DNA of 64,000 nt, taken from Myxococcota bacterium (GTDB lineage Bacteria > Myxococcota_A > UBA9160 > SZUA-336). The DNA lies in the NCBI GenBank assembly GCA_040902485.1, contig JBBDXF010000038.1:229134-293133 (forward strand), read 5' to 3'. The position numbers were made by a program, and so were the translations under genes. The notes beneath the pieces are model-generated. The model was given only the letters and a program-made list of their open reading frames with translations. It was not told the DNA's origin and made no database searches. Shown in pieces: positions 13,608-39,421 of this stretch. Each line of letters begins with the position of its first letter. The stretch's first letter is position 1.

Positions 13608-13684
13608 TGGCGCGCCCGGCTGGACTCGAACCAGCGACCTGCGGATTAGAAGTCCGCTGCTCTATCCAGCTGAGCTACGGGCGC
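13608..13684 (-). tRNA. tRNA-Arg (anticodon TCT)
   Basis: The reverse complement folds as a cloverleaf: GCGCCCG/TA/GCTC-AGCTGGATA-GAGC/A/GCGGA-CTTCTAA-TCCGC/AGGTC/GCTGG-TTCGAGT-CCAGC/CGGGCGC-G-CCA. The anticodon loop CTTCTAA gives anticodon TCT. CCA is encoded. Confidence 0.9.
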
Positions 13685-27561: not shown

Positions 27562-27575
27562 GACTCGTTTCCGGC

Positions 27576-28718
27576 TCAGCGCGCGCGCGACGCGCGCACG
27601 GTCGCGAGCGTCTCGCGCGCGATCTGGAGCTCCTCGTCGGTGCGCACGACGAGCACGCGCACGGGCGAGCCGAGGCTCCCGATCTCGCAGGCCTCGCCCG
27701 CGCCTTCGCGGTTGCGCTGCGCGTCGAGCGCGATGCCGAGGCGCGCGAGGCCCGCGCAGGCGAGCTCGCGTACGCGCGCCGCGTTCTCGCCCACGCCCCC
27801 GGTGAAGACGAGCGCGTCCACCCGGTCGAGCACGGCGGTATAGGCGCCGATGCACTTGCGGATCCGATACGCGTAGATCTCGAGCGCGAGCCGCGCGCGC
27901 TCGTCTCCCCGCGTCTCGCGCGCGAGGATCTCGCGCACGTCGTTCGTGCCGCACAGCCCGCGCAGACCCGACTCCTGGTTCAACGTCGCCTCCAGCGCGT
28001 CCGCCGAAAGCCCCTGCGCTCGCTGCACGAAGAGGGGAACCGCGGGATCGAGATCGCCGCTGCGCGAGCCCATCACGAGGCCCTCGAGCGGGGTGAACCC
28101 CATCGACGTGTCGACGCAGCGACCGTTCTCGATCGCCGCGGCGCTCGCCCCGTTGCCGAGGTGCAGCGTGATCAGGTTGAGCGACGCGAGCGGGCGGCCG
28201 AGCAGCGCGGCGGCGCGCTCCGCCACGTAGCCGTGGGAGGTGCCGTGGAAGCCGTAGCGGCGCACGCCGAGCCGGTACCAGTCCTCGGGCACGGCGTAGC
28301 GAAAGGCGCGCGGTGCGAGCGTGTGGTGGAACGCGGTGTCGAAGACCGCGACCTGCGGCACGCCCGGATAGGCTTCGAGACAGGCCTCGATCCCGAGCAA
28401 GTTGGCCGGATTGTGAAGCGGTGCGAGCCGCGCGAGCTCGCCGATCGCGCGGCACACGCCGGCGTCGACCAGCGTGGGCTCGCGGAAGCGCTCGCCTCCG
28501 TGAACCACGCGGTGGCCGATCGCCCCGGGCGCGCCGCAGCCGCGCAGCGACACATCGATGTGTCGGAACGCTTCCGGGAGATCGCGGGCCGCGCCCTCCT
28601 CCCCGATCCGCTCGAGCAGGCCGGAGGCGAGGCGCCGCTCGCCGTCCATCGCGAGCAGGCGGTACTTCACCGACGAGCTCCCGCAGTTCACGACCAGGAC
28701 GCGGTCTGCTTCCGCCAC
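27576..28718 (-). CDS. ackA: acetate kinase
   Basis: VLVVNCGSSSVKYRL...HGTSHGYV...HLGNGASAAAIENG. Confidence 0.9.
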   Translation of the reverse strand: MAEADRVLVVNCGSSSVKYRLLAMDGERRLASGLLERIGEEGAARDLPEAFRHIDVSLRGCGAPGAIGHRVVHGGERFREPTLVDAGVCRAIGELARLAPLHNPANLLGIEACLEAYPGVPQVAVFDTAFHHTLAPRAFRYAVPEDWYRLGVRRYGFHGTSHGYVAERAAALLGRPLASLNLITLHLGNGASAAAIENGRCVDTSMGFTPLEGLVMGSRSGDLDPAVPLFVQRAQGLSADALEATLNQESGLRGLCGTNDVREILARETRGDERARLALEIYAYRIRKCIGAYTAVLDRVDALVFTGGVGENAARVRELACAGLARLGIALDAQRNREGAGEACEIGSLGSPVRVLVVRTDEELQIARETLATVRASRAR

Positions 28719-28728
28719 GCGCGTGATC

Positions 28729-31110
28729 CTAGCCGACCGCGGCGGCGCCCCAGCGCCAGTCGCGCACCTCCGGCATGTCCTCGCCGTAGCGCTCGATGTA
28801 GTGCTTGTGGTCGATCAGCTTGTCGCGGATCGCCTGCTTGGCGTAGGCCGCGCGCGCGCCGAGCTTCGGCACGCGGTCGATCACGTCGCCGACCAGGTGG
28901 AAGCGGTCCATGTCGTTCAGCACCACCATGTCGAAAGGCGTGGTGGTGGTGCCCTCCTCCTTGTATCCGCGGACGTGGAGGTTGTCGTGGTTGGTGCGCC
29001 GGTAGGTGAGGCGGTGGATCAGCCACGGGTAGCCGTGGAAGGCGAAGAGGATCGGCTTGTCCCGGGTGAAGAGAACGTCGAACTCCTGGTCGGAGAGGCC
29101 GTTCGGGTGCTCCTCCGGCGGCTGGAGCTTCATCAGATCCACCACGTTCACGACCCGCACCTTGAGCTCCGGCACTTGCGCGCGCAGCAGCTCGACCGCG
29201 GCCAGGGTCTCGAGCGTGGGCACGTCGCCGCAGCAGGCCATCACCACGTCGGGCTCGCCGCCCCGGTCGCTGCTCGCCCACTCCCAGATGCCGATCCCCG
29301 CACGGCAGTGCTTGATCGCCTCGTCCATCGACAGCCACTGCGGCGCGGGCTGCTTGCCCGCGACCACCACGTTCACCAGGTTGCGGCTGCGCAGGCATTC
29401 GTCGGTCACGTACAGCAGGCAGTTCGCGTCGGGCGGCAGATAGACGCGAATCACTTCGGCCTTCTTGTTCACCACGTGGTCGAGAAATCCGGGATCCTGG
29501 TGGCTGAAGCCGTTGTGGTCCTGGCGCCAGACATGACTCGAGAGCAGGTAGTTCAGCGACGCGATCGAGCGCCGCCAGGGGATCTGGTTGCAGACCTTCA
29601 ACCACTTCGCATGCTGGTTGAACATCGAGTCCACGATGTGGATGAAGGCCTCGTAACAGGAGAAGAAGCCGTGGCGGCCGGTCAGCAGGTAGCCCTCGAG
29701 CCAGCCCTGGCACTGGTGCTCCGAGAGCATCTCCATGACGCGGCCGTCGCGTGCGAGCCGATCGTCGCCGGGCAGCGTCTCTGCGTTCCAGGCGCGGTTC
29801 GTCACCTCGAGAACGTCCTGCCAGCGGTTCGAGTTGTTCTCGTCGGGGCTGAACAGCCGGAAGTTGCGAGCGGACAGGTTTCGCTCCATCACGTCGCGCA
29901 GGAAGCGGCCCATCACGCGCGTCGCCTCGGCGTCGCTCGCGCCCGGGCTCGGCACGGCGACGGCGTACTCGCGGAAGTCCGGCAGCTGCAGCTCGCGGAG
30001 CAAGAGGCCGCCGTTGGCGTTCGGATTGGCGCCCATGCGCCGCGCGCCTTTCGGCGCGAGCGCCGTGATCTCCGGCTTCGGACGCCCCGTCACGTCGAAC
30101 AGCTCCTCGGGGCGATAGCTCGCGAGCCACGCCTCGAGTTGGCGCACGTGCTCCGGGTTCTCGTGCAGCGCGCCGAGCGGAACCTGGTGCGAGCGCCAGC
30201 TGCCCTCGGTGCGCTTTCCGTCGACCTGCTCGGGGCCGGTCCAGCCCTTCGGCGAGCGCAGCACGATCATCGGCCAGCGCGGTCTGCCGGTCGCGCCTGC
30301 TTCGCGCGCCGCTCGCCAGATGCCGCGGATCCGCTCGATCACGGCATCGAGCGTGTCGGCCATGAGGCGGTGCATCGCCGCGGGCTCGGAGCCCTCGACG
30401 AAAAACGGTTCGTAGCCGTAGCCGCGGAGAAGCTGCTCGAGCTCTTCGTGCGGGATGCGCGCCAAAACGCTCGGGCTGGCGATCTTGTAGCCGTTCAGGT
30501 GCAGGATCGGCAGCACCGCTCCGTCGCTGGCCGGGTTCAGGAACTTGTTCGAATGCCAGCTCGTGGCCAGTGGCCCGGTCTCGGCCTCGCCGTCGCCGAC
30601 GACACAGGCGACGATCAATTCCGGGTTGTCGAACGCCGCGCCGTAGGCGTGCGAGAGCGCATAGCCGAGCTCACCGCCCTCGTGGATCGAGCCCGGTGTC
30701 TCGGGCGCGACGTGACTCGGAATTCCGCCCGGAAAGGAGAACTGCCTGAACAGGCGCTTCATGCCCGCCAGGTCCTGCGACACGGCGGGGTAGACCTCGC
30801 TGTACGTGCCCTCGAGCCAGGTGCTCGCCACGAGCGCGGGTCCGCCGTGGCCCGGACCGGTGAGGAAGAGCACGTCGAGATCGAACCGGTTGATCACGCG
30901 ATTCAGGTGCGCGTACAGGAAGTTCAGTCCCGGCGTCGTGCCCCAGTGACCGAGCAGACGCGGCTTCACGTGCTCCTTCGCGAGCGGAACGCGCAGCAGC
31001 GGGTTGTCGTAGAGGTAGATCTGACCGACCGCGAGGTAGTTGGCGGCGCGCCACCATGCATCGAGGCGGTCGAGATCGTCGTCGCTGGCGGTACCGGTCC
31101 GCGCGGACAT
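28729..31110 (-). CDS. xfp: xylulose-5-phosphate/fructose-6-phosphate phosphoketolase
   Basis: 793 aa. [24 protein letters not shown]...[11 protein letters not shown]...GPGHGGPA is the phosphoketolase signature. Immediately upstream of ackA. Confidence 0.9.
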
Positions 31111-31188
31111 CCTCGAAGCCTAGCCGTTGCGGGTACACTCGGGTGGTCGGAGGCGGAGAGGCTCGATGGCAAGGGCAGGAGGTTCGTC

Positions 31189-33711
31189 ATGGCCGCTCGC
31201 TCGTCGGCTAAGGCACCTGACATCGGGCTGGATACGCTCGCGGAGCTCGCGCTCGACCTGCGCTGGTCGTGGGACCACAGTAGCGATGACCTGTGGGAGG
31301 AGATGGATCGCGAGCTCTGGTCCCTGACGCACAATCCCTGGGTGATCCTGCAGACGGTGTCGAGGACCCGACTCGACGAGCTGATCGCGCAGCCGCAGTT
31401 CCGCAACCACGTGCAGCGCTTGCGGGACGACCGGCGCGCGTACCTGGGCGCGAAGGCCTGGTTCCAGCAGCAGCATCCTCGGCCGCCCCTGCACAGGGTC
31501 GCGTACTTCAGCATGGAGTTCGGGCTCAGCGAGGCGCTGCCCATCTACTCCGGCGGGCTCGGCAACGTGGCGGGCGACCAGCTCAAGGCGGCCAGCGACC
31601 TCGGCGTTCCGGTCGCCGGCATCGGGCTCCTGTTCCAGCAAGGCTATTTCCGCCAGACCATCAGCGCCGATGGTCGCCAGGAAGCGCTCTACCCGCACAA
31701 CGATCCGGGCCAGCTTCCGATCACGCCGGTCCGCGATGCGAACGGCGAGTGGCTCCGCCTGGAGTTCCAGCTTCCCGGCTACAAGCTCTGGCTTCGCGCC
31801 TGGCAGGTGCAGGTCGGCCGACTCACTCTGTATCTGCTCGACAGCAACGACCCGGCGAACCCTCCGGCGATCCGCGGCGTCACGAGCGAGCTGTATGGCG
31901 GCGGGCCGGAGCAGCGCCTGCGGCAGGAGATGGTGCTTGGGATCGGCGGCTGGCGCCTGATGTGGGCCCTCGGCCTGGAGCCCGAGGTCTGCCACTTGAA
32001 CGAAGGGCATGCCGCGCTGGCGGTGCTCGAGCGCGCCCGCTGCTTCATGGAGCAGAGCGGACAGCCCTTCGACGTCGCGCTGGCGGTCACGCGCGCCGGC
32101 AATCTCTTCACGACGCACACCCCGGTGGCCGCGGGCTTCGATCGCTTCGATCCGGCCCTCGTCGAGCAGTACCTGCGCCGCTATGCCGAGCAGTCTCTCG
32201 GAATCAGCGTGACCGAGCTTCTCGCGCTCGGTCGCGAGAATCCCGCGGACGCGAGCGAGCCCTTCAACATGGCGTATCTCGCCGTCCGCGGGAGCGGCGC
32301 CGTGAACGGCGTGAGCCGGCTCCATGGCGCCGTGAGCCGCCGGATCTTCCAGAACCTGTTTCCCCGCTGGCCCGAGCTCGAGGTGCCGGTCGGCCACGTG
32401 ACCAACGGCGTCCACACGCCGACGTGGGACTCACCAGAGGCGGATGCGCTCTGGACCACGGCGTGTGGCCGCGAACGGTGGCGCGGCGCGCTCGAAACGG
32501 TCGAGCGCGACATCCGTTGCGCGTCCGACGCCGAGCTGTGGGAGATGCGCGGGAAAGCGCGCGCACACCTGGTCGCCTACGCGCGAGAACGCGTCGCTCA
32601 GCAGCTCGCGTCGCTCGGTGCCCCGTCGCCGCGCGTGCCGGCGATGCACGAGTGCCTCGATCCCGAAGCGCTCACGCTCGTTTTCGCGCGCCGCTTCGCG
32701 ACGTACAAGCGCCCGACGCTGCTGCTCCACGACCCCGAGCGGCTGGTGCGGATCCTCGGCAACCGAGAGCGGCCGGTGCAGCTCATCATCGCCGGCAAGG
32801 CGCACCCTGCCGACGAGGCGGGTCAGGCGATGATCCGGGAGTGGTTCCACTTCATCCGGCGCCCCGAGGTTCGCGGGCGCGCGATCTTCATCCCCGACTA
32901 CGATCTGCTCCTGGCCGAACATCTCGTGCAAGGCGCCGACGTCTGGATCAATACGCCGCGCCGCCCGTGGGAGGCGAGCGGAACGAGCGGCATGAAGGTG
33001 CTGGTCAACGGCGGCCTCAATCTGTCGGAGCTCGACGGCTGGTGGGCGGAGGCCTACACGCCCGAAGTCGGCTGGGCCCTGGGGGATGGCCGCGAGCACG
33101 GTGACGACCCGGCGTGGGACGCGCTGGAGGCGCAAGCGCTCTACGCGTTGCTCGAGCGCGAGATCGTGCCCGCGTTCTTCGACCGCGACGCGCAGGGAAT
33201 TCCTCGACACTGGGTCGAGCGTGTTCGCGAGAGCATGGCGCGACTCACGCCCCGCTTCTCGGCCAACCGTGTCGTCCGCGAGTACACCGAGAAGCACTAC
33301 CTGCCGGCGGGGCTCGCCTATCGCGCGCGCGCGGCGGAGAAGGGTGCGATCGGCGCGGGCGTACGCGCTTGGCAGCAGCAGCTCGCACAGCACTGGACCG
33401 AGGCGCGCTTCGGCGCGGTGTCCGTCGAGACGCGTGGCGACCTGCATCACTTCGCAGTCGAGGTCTATCTCGGGGGTCTCGATAAAGGCTCGGTCCGCGT
33501 CGAGCTCTACGCCAGTCCGCTCGACGAGGGGGACCCGGTCCAGCGCGCGCTGGCGCACTTCCGGGATCTCGAGGGACCCGGCAGCGCGTGCGAGTACGTC
33601 GGCCAGGCGCCGGCAGCGCGCCCCGCCTCCGATTACACGCCGCGGCTCGTTCCTCATCACGAGGCAGCGATCGTCCCGCTCGAGGCGCCCTGGATCCTCT
33701 GGCAGCGCTGA
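31189..33711 (+). CDS. glgP: alpha-glucan (glycogen/maltodextrin) phosphorylase, GlgP/DUF3417-type
   Basis: MAARSSAKAPDIGLDTLAELALDLRWSWDHSSDDLWEEMDRELW...VAYFSMEFGLSEALPIYSGGLGNVAGDQLKAASDLGVPVAGIGLLFQQGYF. AGGAGG RBS. The 1717-aa track ORF is an upstream over-extension. Confidence 0.9.
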   Translation: MAARSSAKAPDIGLDTLAELALDLRWSWDHSSDDLWEEMDRELWSLTHNPWVILQTVSRTRLDELIAQPQFRNHVQRLRDDRRAYLGAKAWFQQQHPRPPLHRVAYFSMEFGLSEALPIYSGGLGNVAGDQLKAASDLGVPVAGIGLLFQQGYFRQTISADGRQEALYPHNDPGQLPITPVRDANGEWLRLEFQLPGYKLWLRAWQVQVGRLTLYLLDSNDPANPPAIRGVTSELYGGGPEQRLRQEMVLGIGGWRLMWALGLEPEVCHLNEGHAALAVLERARCFMEQSGQPFDVALAVTRAGNLFTTHTPVAAGFDRFDPALVEQYLRRYAEQSLGISVTELLALGRENPADASEPFNMAYLAVRGSGAVNGVSRLHGAVSRRIFQNLFPRWPELEVPVGHVTNGVHTPTWDSPEADALWTTACGRERWRGALETVERDIRCASDAELWEMRGKARAHLVAYARERVAQQLASLGAPSPRVPAMHECLDPEALTLVFARRFATYKRPTLLLHDPERLVRILGNRERPVQLIIAGKAHPADEAGQAMIREWFHFIRRPEVRGRAIFIPDYDLLLAEHLVQGADVWINTPRRPWEASGTSGMKVLVNGGLNLSELDGWWAEAYTPEVGWALGDGREHGDDPAWDALEAQALYALLEREIVPAFFDRDAQGIPRHWVERVRESMARLTPRFSANRVVREYTEKHYLPAGLAYRARAAEKGAIGAGVRAWQQQLAQHWTEARFGAVSVETRGDLHHFAVEVYLGGLDKGSVRVELYASPLDEGDPVQRALAHFRDLEGPGSACEYVGQAPAARPASDYTPRLVPHHEAAIVPLEAPWILWQR

Positions 33712-33723
33712 GCGCGAAAAACG

Positions 33724-33752
33724 GGCCCCGGAAGAGGGGTTTCCGGGGCCCG
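33724..33752. terminator. GC-rich hairpin between convergent glgP and small peptide A
   Basis: GGGCCCCGGAA-gagggg-TTTCCGGGGCCC. The stem sequence closely matches the hairpin after groEL. Confidence 0.5.
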
Positions 33753-33811
33753 TCGAGATCCGCGTCGGTTGGGGAGGGAGTCCCTGCCGGCGCGGACGGA
33801 TCTGAGATCGC

Positions 33812-33907
33812 CTACGAGAGTCCGAGGACCTGCAGCACGTACAAGCCGTGCATGACCATCCAGCCGCCCATCATCGTCCCGAACGCGACGTTTTCGAAGG
33901 TGCTCAT
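33812..33907 (-). CDS. small hydrophobic Met/His/Trp-rich peptide (31 aa), paralogue A
   Basis: MSTFENVAFGTMMGGWMVMHGLYVLQVLGLS. GAGGAGA RBS 5 nt upstream of the ATG. It is the paralogue of the 34-aa peptide at 34487..34591 and is below the track's length cutoff. Confidence 0.5.
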   Translation of the reverse strand: MSTFENVAFGTMMGGWMVMHGLYVLQVLGLS

Positions 33908-33983
33908 CGTCGTCTCCTCGGTGTCGGGTTCTCGCGTACGACGACAACATCGCGCTGCCCCCGGGGGCCAGCTGTGAAGCATT

Positions 33984-34436
33984 TCACTCTGCCGAGACGA
34001 TTTTCAGCGCGCGGTAGGGCTCGACCCGATGCAGCTGGTAGTTCAGCGTGGAGCCGATCTCCCGGCCGTCGCGGTCGAGCAGGCGAATCGTCTCGGCGTC
34101 GACCACGCGGAACACGCGCGGCGGCTCCCGGTCGCCGCGCAGGACCACGCGATCGCTGTCGGTCGCCAGCGTGAACGTGCCCATGGCCTCGTGGGTCGCG
34201 TGCTCGCCCTTTTCCAGGTACGTGCTGCGCATGAACCAGGCCCCGTTCGCGCGCAGGTCGAGCTCCGTACGGATGCCCGCGCAGTCCGCGCAGGGAAGCT
34301 CGCCGGTGAAGGCCGCGGGTGGCCGGATCAGGGTGGCGGCGATGGGGGGCTCGCGTTGCCACAGGGCGCAGGCGCCCAGCGCCAGCCCCAAGGCGAGCAG
34401 CCGGCACGTGATCGCCGTTCGATTCGTGGATTCCAA
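33984..34436 (-). CDS. lipoprotein with NlpE N-terminal-like domain
   Basis: Lipobox LALGACA. GELPCADCAGIRTELDLRANGAWFMRSTY matches the NlpE N-domain (CxDCxGI) signature. Confidence 0.7.
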   Translation of the reverse strand: MESTNRTAITCRLLALGLALGACALWQREPPIAATLIRPPAAFTGELPCADCAGIRTELDLRANGAWFMRSTYLEKGEHATHEAMGTFTLATDSDRVVLRGDREPPRVFRVVDAETIRLLDRDGREIGSTLNYQLHRVEPYRALKIVSAE

Positions 34437-34442
34437 AAGAGA

Positions 34443-34475
34443 CGGCCCCCGTAGACTCGGAGTCTACGGGGGCCG
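34443..34475. terminator. perfect GC-rich hairpin between small peptide B and the NlpE-like gene
   Basis: CGGCCCCCGTAGACTC-gga-GTCTACGGGGGCCG. Confidence 0.5.
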
Positions 34476-34486
34476 GACCGAAGCGA

Positions 34487-34591
34487 CTACGCGAGACCGA
34501 TGCCCCTCAGCACCTGCAGCATGTGCATCCCGTGCAGCATCATCCAGCTAGCCAGCATCAGCGACAGCATCCGATTCCGGAAGGTGCTCAT
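34487..34591 (-). CDS. small hydrophobic Met/His/Trp-rich peptide (34 aa), paralogue B
   Basis: MSTFRNRMLSLMLASWMMLHGMHMLQVLRGIGLA. GAGGAGA RBS 5 nt upstream. Shares MSTF-x-N...W-M-x-[ML]-H-G-[ML]-[HY]-x-L-Q-V-L with paralogue A. Confidence 0.5.
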   Translation of the reverse strand: MSTFRNRMLSLMLASWMMLHGMHMLQVLRGIGLA

Positions 34592-34689
34592 CGTGGTCTC
34601 CTCGATCGTGGTCCATCGACCACGACCGGAGCATCGCTCGCCGCCGTCGGCCGGGCCGTGAAGGTTTTCACTGGCGGATGGCGATTTTT

Positions 34690-35175
34690 TCAGTCGGCCG
34701 CGCGGCCCTGGAACGTGGCCAGGAGCGCTCCGGAAGCGTCGCGGAGCTCGAGCCGGTGGCCCTCGATGCGCAGCGACGTCGTCTGGCCGAGCGCGCTGCC
34801 GAGCGCGTCCTCGACCGGCATGCCCTCGGCGCAGAACATGCGCGTACCGGCGATCGGGCCGAAGTGGAGCTCGTCGCCCTTGCGCTCGTAGCTGCCCGCC
34901 AGACGGTTGCAGCCGCCCGAGCCGCTGACGCGCCCGGGCGGCTCGCCGAACAGCAGGAACGCCTCGGTCTGCGTCTTTGCGATCGGCGCCGCGGCCGCGC
35001 CGAGCGCCGTCAGGGTCCAGCGCGTGCGCTCGAGCCCGAGCGATGTCGCGGCCGAACGCGTGTCCGCGGCGGCGCAGGCGAGCGCGAGGCAGCCGAGCGC
35101 GAGCGAGCCGAATCCTGCGCGGAGCTTCGCTCGATCCATCGTCATGTCGCCGCTCTCCTGTCGCCTCTCGATCAT
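34690..35175 (-). CDS. lipoprotein with META/HslJ-like (DUF306) domain
   Basis: Lipobox LALGCLALACAA. ...GSGGCNRLAGSYERKGDELHFGPIAGTRMFC... is typical of the HslJ/META domain. Confidence 0.7.
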   Translation of the reverse strand: MIERRQESGDMTMDRAKLRAGFGSLALGCLALACAAADTRSAATSLGLERTRWTLTALGAAAAPIAKTQTEAFLLFGEPPGRVSGSGGCNRLAGSYERKGDELHFGPIAGTRMFCAEGMPVEDALGSALGQTTSLRIEGHRLELRDASGALLATFQGRAAD

Positions 35176-35295
35176 GCGAAGTGGATTGACGGACGTCGCG
35201 ATGGTGGATCACGCTACGCGGCATGTCGACCGACGTCGCCGTGCAGGCTTGAGCCGAGTGTGCCCCGAAAACGCCGCCCGCTGCCGCACGAGACG

Positions 35296-36285: not shown

Positions 36286-36810
36286 CTACTCGGCCTTGGC
36301 GGGCTCCTCGGCGGGCGGGGTCGCGGTCGCAGGCTGGAGCGCGGCGACCAGCTCCTCCGCGGTCGTCGGATACGAGATGGCGGTGACGCGGAGCTTGTCG
36401 AGCACGAGCACGGTCGGATAGGTCGCGCCGCCGGGAATGTCCGCGGTCTTCACGCCCTCGTCGTCGACCAAGAGCTTGTAGGGCCGGCGCCGCATGGCGG
36501 GCATCGCGAACAGGGTGCGGATGATTGCCGGCATGCCCTTCACGTCGACCACGTACACAGCGGAGTTTCGGTCGAAGAGGTCCGGACCCGCCTGCTCGAC
36601 GGCAGCCTTCACGACGTCCCCGGCCTTCATGTCGCGGCTGAACACCAGCGCGCGCACCGAGTCGTCGATCGTGCGCGCCTCGCCGTGCTGATCGGGCAGC
36701 TCGATCTTCGGCAGCGTGCTGCCCACGGCGTACGGCTCGGCGAGCGCAAGGGGCGCTGCGGAGAGGATGGCCGCGGCGACGGCGAGCGCGAAGGCGAGTG
36801 GGGTTCGCAT
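36286..36810 (-). CDS. secreted hypothetical protein
   Basis: Signal peptide MRTPLAFALAVAAAILSAAPLALA. No recognisable family. Confidence 0.5.
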   Translation of the reverse strand: MRTPLAFALAVAAAILSAAPLALAEPYAVGSTLPKIELPDQHGEARTIDDSVRALVFSRDMKAGDVVKAAVEQAGPDLFDRNSAVYVVDVKGMPAIIRTLFAMPAMRRRPYKLLVDDEGVKTADIPGGATYPTVLVLDKLRVTAISYPTTAEELVAALQPATATPPAEEPAKAE

Positions 36811-36836
36811 GCTCGGGTAGTAGTACACGCTCCGCG

Positions 36837-39347: not shown

Positions 39348-39421
39348 TCGGGGCGGCCGGATTCGAACCGGCGACCTTCTGCTCCCAAAGCAGACGCGCT
39401 ACCGAGCTGCGCTACGCCCCG
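39348..39421 (-). tRNA. tRNA-Pro (anticodon TGG)
   Basis: The reverse complement folds as CGGGGCG/TA/GCGC-AGCTCGGTA-GCGC/G/TCTGC-TTTGGGA-GCAGA/AGGTC/GCCGG-TTCGAAT-CCGGC/CGCCCCG-A. Anticodon TGG. CCA is not encoded. Confidence 0.9.

What the first reader, a model, noticed from the sequence alone, without database searches (positions are those of the whole stretch)
33712..35200. Duplicated module: lipoprotein (HslJ/META-like, then NlpE-N-like) each followed by a conserved 31–34 aa Met/His/Trp-rich membrane peptide with its own RBS
**Seen in the sequence**
- Two tiny minus-strand ORFs at 33812–33907 and 34487–34591 encode MSTFENVAFGTMMGGWMVMHGLYVLQVLGLS and MSTFRNRMLSLMLASWMMLHGMHMLQVLRGIGLA.
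- Both begin MSTF, both carry a GAGGAGA RBS 5 nt upstream, and both share the core W-M-x-[ML]-H-G-[ML]-[HY]-x-L-Q-V-L.
- Each sits immediately downstream (same strand) of a lipoprotein gene: the first follows a META/HslJ-like lipoprotein, the second an NlpE-N-domain-like lipoprotein.
- Perfect GC hairpins separate and flank the units.
- The peptides fall below ordinary ORF-calling cutoffs, so this paralogous pair is likely unannotated.

**Inference**
- Multiple Met/His residues in a single predicted TM helix recall Cu(I)/metal-binding Met/His motifs seen in the CopC, CusF and PcoE protein families.
- NlpE-family proteins have been implicated in copper/envelope stress sensing.
- A small metal-binding or envelope-stress membrane peptide family partnered with these lipoproteins is therefore plausible but unproven.
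Basis: partly seen in the sequence, partly recalled or inferred. Interest (0 to 1): 0.7.

Follow-up and report, generated by a model that had tools for sequence, protein, structure and literature searches.

The report
Two promoter-equipped small membrane peptide genes
Two tiny genes beside envelope lipoprotein genes in an uncultured Myxococcota genome belong to a previously undescribed, lineage-restricted family of one-helix membrane peptides, each apparently carrying its own regulated promoter; one copy is clearly kept by selection, the other is drifting, and the proposed copper-binding role is not supported.

Summary

What is duplicated is not "lipoprotein + peptide". It is a ~230-nt unit with these parts:
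- an invariant palindrome, GTGAA-N4-TTCAC
- exactly 22 variable nt
- a -10-like hexamer (GATGYT)
- a ~38-nt 5'UTR that can pair with its own SD/AUG
- a 31-34-codon ORF
- a terminator

I recovered 15 units from related Myxococcota metagenome contigs, all with this architecture. All 25 palindrome occurrences in 173 kb sit upstream of a peptide ORF.

The copy after NlpE_N (pepB) has dN/dS of 0.10-0.27. It is 90-97% conserved where NlpE_N itself is 61-89% conserved. AlphaFold2 predicts one helix (pLDDT 96). I read it as a real small membrane protein.

The copy after META (pepA) evolves neutrally (dN/dS about 1-2.4). One relative has lost its start codon and another has a frameshift.

Trp16, His20, Gln26 and most Met residues are replaced in distant members, so a Cu/metal site is unsupported.

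There is no Pfam, NCBIfam or Rfam match. An HMM search of 1.84 billion proteins found only 6 clusters. This is a new small-protein family of a known kind, with unknown function.

The parts
34690..35145 (-). META-domain (HslJ-like) lipoprotein gene. Likely start is ATG 35145, with GGAGAG 7 nt upstream. An alternative ATG lies at 35175.
   Evidence: Pfam PF03724 3e-24. NCBIfam HslJ 1e-5, below its cutoff. Signal peptide plus lipobox LALGC/LALAC read from the sequence.
34658..34671 (.). Palindrome A, GTGAAAACCTTCAC (GTGAA-N4-TTCAC). Putative binding site for a dimeric CRP/FNR-type regulator.
   Evidence: The arms are invariant in 15 of 15 units and the centre is variable. Only 2 matches occur in the window against 0 expected. 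All 25 occurrences in 173 kb lie upstream of peptide ORFs.
34630..34635 (-). -10-like hexamer GATGCT, exactly 22 nt downstream of the palindrome. The site centre would fall at -41.5 if the TSS is 7 nt downstream.
   Evidence: The spacer is 22 nt in all 15 units although its sequence varies. A2 and T6 of the hexamer are invariant. The TSS has not been mapped.
34592..34629 (-). 5'UTR of pepA with SD GAGGAGA (34603-34597). GUCGUGGUC can pair with either of two GACCACGAU copies, the second of which runs into the AUG.
   Evidence: 9-bp duplex; 0 of 500 shuffles reach it.
34487..34591 (-). pepA, a 34-aa ORF (MSTFRNRMLSLMLASWMMLHGMHMLQVLRGIGLA). It is the fast-evolving paralogue.
   Evidence: dN/dS is about 1-2.4 against orthologues. 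L014 has ATC in place of ATG, and L017/L018 carry a frameshift. The exact sequence is present as a Logan gene call.
34443..34475 (-). 15-bp GC hairpin followed by a T-tract (terminator-like). The T-tract contains the TTG start of the next gene.
   Evidence: Conserved after pepA in L014, L016, L021 and L029.
33984..34436 (-). NlpE N-terminal-domain lipoprotein gene (TTG start, CxxC motif CADC). Its stop codon lies inside palindrome B.
   Evidence: Pfam PF04170 5e-20. 99% identical to NCBI MEX2208282.1 'copper resistance protein NlpE [Myxococcota bacterium]'.
33974..33987 (.). Palindrome B, GTGAAATGCTTCAC. It overlaps the NlpE_N stop codon (TGA 33986-33984).
33946..33951 (-). -10-like hexamer GATGTT, 22 nt downstream of palindrome B.
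33908..33945 (-). 5'UTR of pepB with SD GAGGAGA (33919-33913). GUCGUCGU can pair with ACGACGAU, which includes the A and U of the AUG.
   Evidence: 8-bp duplex; 0.6% of shuffles reach it.
33812..33907 (-). pepB, a 31-aa ORF (MSTFENVAFGTMMGGWMVMHGLYVLQVLGLS). It is the conserved paralogue and is predicted to be a single membrane helix.
   Evidence: dN/dS 0.10-0.27. 90-97% aa identity where NlpE_N is 61-89% identical. AF2 helix over residues 3-28, pLDDT 95.6. Best 19-residue hydropathy 1.3-1.6 for B-type peptides.
33759..33796 (-). 3'UTR stem-loop with a conserved CU-rich (anti-SD-like) loop, ACUCCCUCCCC.
   Evidence: The stem differs between contigs while the loop is kept. The Rfam 6C match scores only 30.4 bits against a gathering score of 47.
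33716..33753 (-). 13-bp GC hairpin plus T5. It terminates the pepB unit and faces the convergent glucan phosphorylase gene, which ends at 33711.

Best explanation
**What it is**
Each peptide ORF is the coding part of a compact, self-contained transcription unit that was duplicated. One copy sits after the META lipoprotein gene and one after the NlpE_N lipoprotein gene.

**Proposed mechanism**
1. A dimeric CRP/FNR-type regulator binds the invariant GTGAA-N4-TTCAC palindrome. The site is centred 41.5 bp upstream of the presumed start point.
2. The regulator activates a promoter that has a -10-like hexamer but no -35 element (class II geometry).
3. The roughly 230-nt mRNA begins near GUCGU. Its 5' end folds back on the SD/AUG region and limits translation.
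4. The product is a 31-34-residue peptide made almost entirely of one helix (residues 3-28).
5. The helix has a small-xxx-small face (G10, G14/G15, G21) and polar His20/Gln26. It most likely inserts in the inner membrane and acts by packing against a larger membrane protein.
6. pepB is the maintained, functional copy. pepA is a relaxed or decaying paralogue.

**Shown here**
- The unit anatomy and its conservation.
- The coding constraint on pepB.
- The decay of pepA in relatives.
- The restriction of the family to this lineage.

**Inferred**
- Promoter activity and the start point of transcription.
- The family of the regulator.
- Membrane insertion.
- The partner protein.
- Any functional link to the neighbouring lipoproteins.
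For: **Unit architecture**
- It is identical in 15 units from at least 8 distinct contig lineages.
- Palindrome arms are 14/14 invariant and the 4-nt centre is free. The 22-nt spacer has fixed length, but in pairwise comparisons of B-type units only 10-19 of its 22 positions are identical. The hexamer fits nAnnnT.
- The palindrome occurs only upstream of these ORFs: 25 of 25 occurrences in 173 kb, with 0 expected in the window.
- Its core equals the CRP-like HcpR sites TTGTGAAnnnnTTCACAA listed in PMC545781.

**Coding constraint on pepB**
- dN/dS is 0.10-0.27 and synonymous changes are in excess (p=1e-3 to 3e-5).
- pepB is more conserved than the adjacent NlpE_N.

**Peptide structure**
- AF2 predicts a single helix with pLDDT 95.6.
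- Best 19-residue hydropathy across the family is 1.1-2.1.

**5' end pairing with the translation start region**
- Pairing of 7-10 bp is possible in 10 of 15 units, using three different sequence solutions.

**pepA decay**
- One relative has ATC in place of ATG, another has a frameshift, and dN/dS is about 1-2.4.
Against: **No direct expression or localisation data**
- There are no transcription, TSS, translation or membrane-localisation data. All sources are metagenome assemblies.

**Promoter and regulator**
- No CRP/FNR homologue was found in the window or loci.
- The consensus sigma-70 scan finds no promoter here. This is expected for an activator-dependent promoter, but it is not positive evidence.

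**Membrane insertion**
- Hydropathy of the B-type helix (1.3-1.56) is only borderline for a transmembrane segment.

**RNA-level versus protein-level constraint**
- The palindrome and UTR stay intact in the broken pepA copies. Part of the constraint could therefore act on RNA or DNA rather than on the peptide.
- RNAalifold offers an alternative in which the hexamer pairs with codons 2-3. That pairing is lost in L023 and L026.

**Synteny**
- All contigs come from one syntenic clade. The lipoprotein association may simply be inherited.
Confidence: 0.6

Rival explanations
1. Type I toxin-like module. The peptides would be membrane-damaging toxins whose translation is kept off by the 5'UTR fold, possibly with an unseen antisense or trans sRNA. 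They would be induced by the palindrome-binding regulator under stress.
For: - The peptide is a small hydrophobic helix.
- The unit has its own promoter-like region and terminator.
- The 5' end can pair with the SD/AUG region.
- The family has paralogous copies with rapid divergence and pseudogenisation.
- Its taxonomic range is very narrow.
Against: - No antisense or complementary partner is detectable in the window beyond the unit's own hairpins.
- pepB is under strong purifying selection at a fixed syntenic position.
- The promoter geometry points to an activator rather than a LexA-like repressor.
- In L023/L026 and L003 the ORF directly precedes metabolic or transporter genes without a terminator.
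Confidence: 0.15
2. One reading: Met/His/Trp residues in the helix bind Cu(I) or another metal, and the peptides work with NlpE/HslJ-like lipoproteins in copper or envelope stress.
For: - Within the close clade, M12, W16 and H20 are conserved, and window pepA has 7 Met.
- NlpE_N keeps its CxxC motif.
- Sources name the neighbouring gene 'copper resistance/homeostasis protein NlpE'.
Against: - H20 is F in L023, D in L026 and Q in L021A.
- W16 is V in L023.
- Q26 is S in L026.
- Met counts vary from 2 to 7 per peptide.
- There is no similarity to CusF, CopC or PcoE families.
- No copper gene (copA, cusCBA, cueO) lies in the neighbourhood.
- The extra Met residues in window pepA arose on a neutrally evolving branch.
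Confidence: 0.07
3. The RNA is the main functional product. On this reading the unit is a regulatory sRNA or leader (with a uORF) that controls downstream genes or acts in trans through the CU-rich 3' loop, and the peptide is secondary.
For: - The palindrome, UTR and hairpins persist in the pepA copies that have lost the ORF.
- The first codons (ATGAGCACCTTCGA) show almost no synonymous variation.
- The 3'UTR carries a conserved anti-SD-like CU loop.
- In L014, L023, L026 and L003 the unit sits directly upstream of operons.
Against: - pepB shows a clear codon-position pattern and low dN/dS along the whole ORF.
- In the five lineages with downstream sequence (window, L001, L014, L016, L021) pepB ends in a terminator hairpin; where the next gene was identified (window, L016, L021) it is convergent, so there is nothing to lead.
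- No Rfam family reaches its threshold.
Confidence: 0.1
4. The ORFs are a chance or decayed segmental duplicate with no function.
For: - pepA evolves at a neutral rate and is broken in two relatives.
- In 71% GC DNA, stop-free frames are common.
Against: - pepB is 90-97% conserved across contigs whose flanking lipoprotein is 61-89% identical, with an excess of synonymous changes.
- The non-coding signals are invariant in 15 units.
Confidence: 0.03

Closest known systems
Bacterial small single-pass membrane proteins that modulate larger membrane proteins (AcrZ-AcrB, KdpF-KdpABC, CydX-CydAB, MgtS-MgtA, MgrB/SafA-PhoQ); reviewed in PMC12648545
   Same: - Length of about 30 aa.
- One hydrophobic helix with almost no extramembrane tail.
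- Own SD and stress-type regulated promoter.
- Missed by standard annotation.
- A small-xxx-small packing face.
   Different: - No sequence similarity to any of them.
- The partner protein is unknown.
- Restricted to one Myxococcota lineage.
- Present as two paralogues with opposite selection regimes.
Class II CRP/FNR-dependent promoters. The closest site type is the CRP-like HcpR site TTGTGAAnnnnTTCACAA of Desulfovibrio (PMC545781).
   Same: - A two-fold symmetric GTGAA-N4-TTCAC core (TGA-N6-TCA).
- Fixed distance to a -10-like hexamer, which places the centre at -41.5.
- No -35 element.
   Different: - The flanks differ: A instead of T before GTGA, and no ACAA after the site.
- No regulator gene was identified.
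- The TSS has not been mapped.
- In 173 kb the site occurs only at these peptide units.
Type I toxins (TisB, Ldr, Ibs, Zor, DinQ)
   Same: - Small hydrophobic peptide.
- Autonomous short transcription unit.
- 5'UTR that can occlude the translation start.
- Paralogous copies and a narrow taxonomic range.
   Different: - No antitoxin RNA was found.
- The likely promoter control is activation rather than repression.
- One copy is strongly conserved at a fixed syntenic site.
Dba, the small membrane protein of the Campylobacter dba-dsbI operon (NCBIfam NF050061)
   Same: - The only library model that touches the peptides. Both are small membrane helices encoded beside envelope genes.
   Different: - The match scores 14.9 bits against a cutoff of 90 (E=0.017) over 20 hydrophobic residues. 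I do not take this as homology.

Membership tests
Bacterial small membrane proteins (functional class, not a homology family) | Short ORF (<=50 codons) with a start codon and a Shine-Dalgarno sequence | tested here: met
   ATG with GAGGAGA 5 nt upstream in both window copies. GGAG is present in all 15 units.
Bacterial small membrane proteins (functional class, not a homology family) | Protein-level purifying selection on the ORF | tested here: met
   pepB group dN/dS 0.10-0.27, p=1e-3 to 3e-5. Not met for the pepA group (dN/dS about 1-2.4).
Bacterial small membrane proteins (functional class, not a homology family) | One hydrophobic helix long enough to span the bilayer | tested here: met
   AF2 helix over residues 3-28, pLDDT 95.6. 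Best 19-residue Kyte-Doolittle window is 1.1-2.1; the B-type value of 1.3-1.56 is borderline.
Bacterial small membrane proteins (functional class, not a homology family) | Demonstrated translation and membrane localisation | not testable with these tools
   Only metagenome assemblies are available.
Cu(I)-binding Met/His motif proteins (CusF, CopC, PcoE) | Sequence membership in the family models | tested here: not met
   No Pfam or NCBIfam hit for either peptide, even at E<=1 and E<=10 respectively.
Cu(I)-binding Met/His motif proteins (CusF, CopC, PcoE) | Conserved Met/His(/Trp) ligand set | tested here: not met
   H20 is F, D or Q; W16 is V; most Met positions vary across members.
Class II CRP/FNR-dependent promoter | Two-fold symmetric TGA-N6-TCA core site | tested here: met
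   GTGAA-N4-TTCAC is invariant in 15 units and its centre is variable.
Class II CRP/FNR-dependent promoter | Site centred near -41.5 relative to the transcription start | tested here: inconclusive
   A fixed 22-nt gap to an nAnnnT hexamer gives -41.5 if the TSS is 7 nt after the hexamer. The TSS is unmapped.
Class II CRP/FNR-dependent promoter | A cognate CRP/FNR-family regulator in the genome | tested here: inconclusive
   None was found in the window or the fetched loci by tblastn. The rest of the genome was not available.
Type I toxin-antitoxin | Antisense or trans-encoded sRNA complementary to the toxin mRNA | tested here: inconclusive
   No significant complementary stretch in the 64 kb window other than the unit's own hairpins. 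No transcript data are available.
Type I toxin-antitoxin | Toxicity on expression | not testable with these tools
   This needs an experiment.
Rfam 6C RNA (RF01066) | Score at or above the gathering threshold | tested here: not met
   30.4 bits against 47; E=0.23. Nothing in the region passes at gathering level.
Attenuation leader peptide | A regulated operon immediately downstream, with alternative terminator/antiterminator structures | tested here: not met
   pepB ends in terminator hairpins in the five lineages with downstream sequence; the next gene is convergent where it was identified (window, L016, L021). Some A-type and distant units do precede operons.
META (PF03724) and NlpE N-terminal (PF04170) lipoproteins (the neighbouring genes) | Pfam score above the gathering threshold, plus a lipobox | tested here: met
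   85.6 bits against 24 and 72.5 bits against 22. Lipobox Cys read from the sequence.

The most novel reading that the evidence does not exclude
The peptides would be inner-membrane partners of the META and NlpE_N envelope lipoproteins, switched on by a dedicated regulator. On this reading the conserved N-terminal STFEN tip faces the periplasm. The prediction of N-out topology rests on an acidic N-terminus and, in A-type peptides, an Arg near the C-terminus. The peptide would couple lipoprotein-based envelope sensing to an inner-membrane target in Myxococcota, in the way NlpE signals to CpxA in E. coli. Optionally, the CU-rich 3'UTR loop would give the same transcript an sRNA function.
Probability: 0.15. 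Interest if true: 0.65.

Novelty: new member of a known kind. Interest (0 to 1): 0.45.

Why it matters
Small membrane proteins are routinely missed by annotation, and almost none are known from Myxococcota.

This family has several features that make it a good entry point:
- A clean regulatory signature. The palindrome is exclusive to these units, which makes it a handle for finding the regulator and its signal.
- A built-in evolutionary contrast between one constrained and one decaying paralogue.
- A fixed position next to two envelope lipoprotein families (META/HslJ and NlpE_N) whose functions outside enterobacteria are obscure.

If the peptides prove to act with those lipoproteins, they would add a missing inner-membrane component to lipoprotein-based envelope sensing. 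If they do not, they remain one more lineage-specific small protein of unknown role.

Tried and rejected
**Searches that added little**
- The search for homologous proteins refuses queries under 40 aa. A concatenated query found only two over-extended 58-aa calls. Exact short peptides that do exist in the collection were not returned, so its index seems not to cover such short proteins.
- The genome-contig scan used a W..HG[LM][HY].LQ back-translation. It gave 8 hits, all consistent with chance: seven in 34-57% GC genomes and one (L005, Armatimonadota, 69% GC) with no ORF context. It also shows that no GTDB species representative carries an exact pattern match.
- The metagenome scan gave 1 true hit (L014) and 3 chance hits.
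- tblastn of pepA against plasmids found nothing.
- Exact-sequence look-ups of the window NlpE_N, GroEL and P0003 were not on record.

**Promoter alternatives considered and rejected**
- Sigma-54 (GG-N10-GC): not conserved in L023.
- ECF-type: no AAC -35 element at a workable distance.
- MerR-type: the palindrome is not inside the spacer, and a TTCACN -35 would need a 21-nt spacer.
- Fur box: Fur sites have TGA-N9-TCA spacing, as in PMC545781, whereas this site has N6.

**Other ideas rejected**
- The palindrome as an RNA hairpin. The arms never co-vary while the centre varies freely, which points to protein recognition of DNA.
- The Dba match, which I take to be hydrophobic-composition noise.
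- A frameshift-compensation explanation for the divergent N-terminal half of window pepA. I examined it by eye and left it unresolved.
Full report
**1. Observation**

The window is 71% GC. Read in the direction of transcription, the minus strand carries these features:
- A META-domain lipoprotein gene at 35145..34690 (Pfam PF03724, 3e-24).
- pepA at 34591..34487 (34 aa).
- A 15-bp GC hairpin with a T-tract at 34475..34443.
- An NlpE N-terminal-domain lipoprotein gene at 34436..33984 (TTG start; PF04170, 5e-20).
- pepB at 33907..33812 (31 aa).
- Two stem-loops at 33796..33716.

Both peptides start MSTF, and GAGGAGA lies 5 nt upstream of each ATG. They match each other at E=1.3e-7, and there is no third copy in the window.

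The two lipoproteins are unrelated (BLASTP E=0.21). What is paralogous is the peptide unit, not a "lipoprotein + peptide" module.

**2. Origin**

The NlpE_N protein is 99% identical to NCBI MEX2208282.1, which is named "MAG: copper resistance protein NlpE [Myxococcota bacterium]". All relatives found are metagenome or MAG contigs.

**3. Extent of the family**

The family is very narrow:
- A back-translated core pattern found no true match among 185,579 species-representative genomes.
- The same approach found one true match in the JGI metagenome collection, L014.
- A profile search of 1.84 billion representative proteins found 6 clusters at E<=1e-3.
- Both exact window peptides already exist in JGI/Logan gene calls as unnamed or hypothetical proteins.
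- No Pfam, NCBIfam or Rfam family matches.

I used homologues of NlpE_N and the peptide clusters to fetch contigs. This gave 15 distinct units.

**4. Anatomy of the unit**

Every unit has the following parts, in this order:
- The palindrome GTGAA-N4-TTCAC. All ten arm positions are invariant and the four central bases are free.
- Exactly 22 nt of spacer whose sequence varies. Pairwise, only 10-19 of 22 positions are identical in the B-type units compared.
- A hexamer: GATGCT, GATGTT, CATGTT, GACCTT or GAGATT. A2 and T6 are invariant.
- 3-4 nt and then GTCGT.
- A GGAG Shine-Dalgarno sequence.
- The start codon, 77-81 nt from the first base of the palindrome.

The palindrome occurs twice in the window where 0 are expected. 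This holds even when one mismatch is allowed. All 25 occurrences in 173 kb of related contigs lie upstream of a peptide ORF.

I read this as a promoter, for three reasons:
- Invariant half-sites with a free centre and no covariation indicate recognition of DNA by a dimeric protein, not an RNA hairpin.
- The fixed 22-nt distance to an nAnnnT hexamer puts the centre of the site at -41.5 if transcription starts 7 nt after the hexamer. No -35 element is present.
- This is the textbook geometry of class II CRP/FNR-activated promoters (established knowledge).

The core also equals the CRP-like HcpR sites TTGTGAAnnnnTTCACAA reported for Desulfovibrio (PMC545781).

The start point and the regulator are inferred.

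**5. The 5'UTR**

The presumed 5' end (GUCGU...) can form a 7-10-bp duplex with the SD/AUG region in 10 of 15 units. Three different sequence solutions achieve this:
- GUCGUCGU with ACGACGAU in B-type units.
- GUCGUGGUC with GA(C/U)CACGAU in window pepA and L016A.
- GUCGUCUUC with GGAGACG(G/A)(C/U) in L023 and L026, where the duplex covers the SD itself.

In 8 of these 10 units fewer than 2% of shuffles reach the observed length (2.2% for L001B, 8% for L017A). This suggests that translation is structurally restrained.

RNAalifold proposes an alternative in which the hexamer pairs with codons 2-3. That pairing is lost in L023 and L026, which favours the promoter reading of the hexamer.

**6. 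Coding evidence**

For the units after NlpE_N, plus L003:
- dN/dS is 0.10-0.27.
- Synonymous changes are in significant excess (Fisher p=1e-3 to 3e-5).
- pepB is 90-97% identical between contigs whose NlpE_N proteins are 61-89% identical.

pepB is therefore a translated gene.

For the units after META in the close clade:
- dN/dS is about 1-2.4, which is not significantly different from neutral (p about 0.2).
- L014 has ATC in place of ATG.
- L017 and L018 carry a 1-nt deletion that truncates the ORF after 10 codons.

The window pepA is intact, but it sits on this relaxed branch. Its extra Met residues (7 of 34) arose there by first-position changes.

**7. The peptide**

AlphaFold2 gives one helix over residues 3-28 with pLDDT 95.6. 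The best 19-residue hydropathy is 1.1-2.1 across the family. The B-type value of 1.3-1.56 is borderline for a transmembrane segment.

The features conserved family-wide are the N-terminal MS(T)FEN, small residues at positions 10, 14/15 and 21, and L25.

Trp16, His20 and Gln26 are conserved only in the close clade:
- L023 has V16 and F20.
- L026 has D20 and S26.
- L021A has Q20.

This removes the basis for a conserved Met/His/Trp metal site. No copper genes are nearby.

**8. Context**

Wherever the upstream sequence is known, the unit follows a META or an NlpE_N gene. The downstream gene varies:
- NlpE_N in the window, L016, L017 and L021.
- A GDH-POR operon in L014. L029 has a 367-aa gene with no Pfam annotation in the same position.
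- ECH-GDH-POR in L026; in L023 an ECH gene followed by a convergent sulfotransferase gene.
- A DASS-type transporter in L003.
- For pepB in the window, L016 and L021, a convergent gene behind a terminator.

Relatives whose NlpE is 66% identical (L019, L020) have lost the unit and keep only a degenerate remnant of the palindrome.

All contigs share synteny (ADH, META, GroESL). The lipoprotein association is consistent, but it is not independent evidence of a functional link.

**9. Verdict**

This is a previously undescribed, lineage-restricted small-protein family packaged in an autonomous unit that is probably activator-dependent.
- pepB is functional and most likely a single-pass membrane peptide acting on a larger membrane partner.
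- pepA is a relaxed paralogue.
- The copper/metal interpretation is not supported.
- A type I toxin-like role and an RNA-level role remain open rivals.

Noticed in passing
window 33759-33796 (minus strand); also L014 B, L016 B, L021 B, L001 B and L017 A: The 3'UTR stem-loop has stem sequences that differ between contigs, but its loop keeps a CU-rich run (ACUCCCUCCCC, expanded in L021B). The run is complementary to GGAGG-type Shine-Dalgarno sequences, so the transcript might also act as an sRNA. The Rfam 6C match is sub-threshold (30.4 bits against 47).
   Followed up: partly
window 34433-34475 and NlpE_N start 34436; L014 6645-11060: In the window, L016 and L021 the NlpE_N gene starts with TTG inside the T-tract of the pepA hairpin and has no SD. 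In L014 a GDH plus 2-oxoacid:ferredoxin oxidoreductase operon lies between the hairpin and NlpE_N. There NlpE_N has its own SD and ATG and a different signal peptide. The window lineage seems to have deleted about 4.4 kb and acquired a new N-terminus.
   Followed up: partly
window 27562-33717 compared with L014 5846-5967: The block carrying acetate kinase, phosphoketolase and a glucan phosphorylase-like gene is absent from the 82-86% identical contig L014. There GroEL directly abuts the pepB terminator.
   Followed up: no
L019 2611-2660 and L020 927-976: More distant NlpE_N homologues (66% identity) lack the peptide unit. They keep a degenerate palindrome remnant (AGTGAGAGGCTTCGCAGCTCGCCC) just after the stop codon, next to a convergent methyltransferase gene.
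   Followed up: partly
L023 5097-5146 and L026 2338-2373: In the distant members the peptide ORF is followed about 50 nt later by an enoyl-CoA hydratase gene, with no terminator between them. A conserved (G/C)(T/C)AGAATGG motif, which looks like a -10 element, lies in that gap.
   Followed up: no
window 36286-36828 (minus strand); L017 3592-4080; L021 4788-5303; L023 1509-1979: A conserved gene of about 160-180 aa with no Pfam match lies between the zinc-ADH gene and the META gene in all relatives. The window copy has a signal-peptide-like N-terminus. In L021 its stop abuts the META start, so it may belong to the same operon. In the window an O-methyltransferase gene separates them.
   Followed up: no
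window 13611-13684 and 39348-39421 (minus strand): Two tRNA genes are the only Rfam matches in the window at gathering threshold.
   Followed up: no
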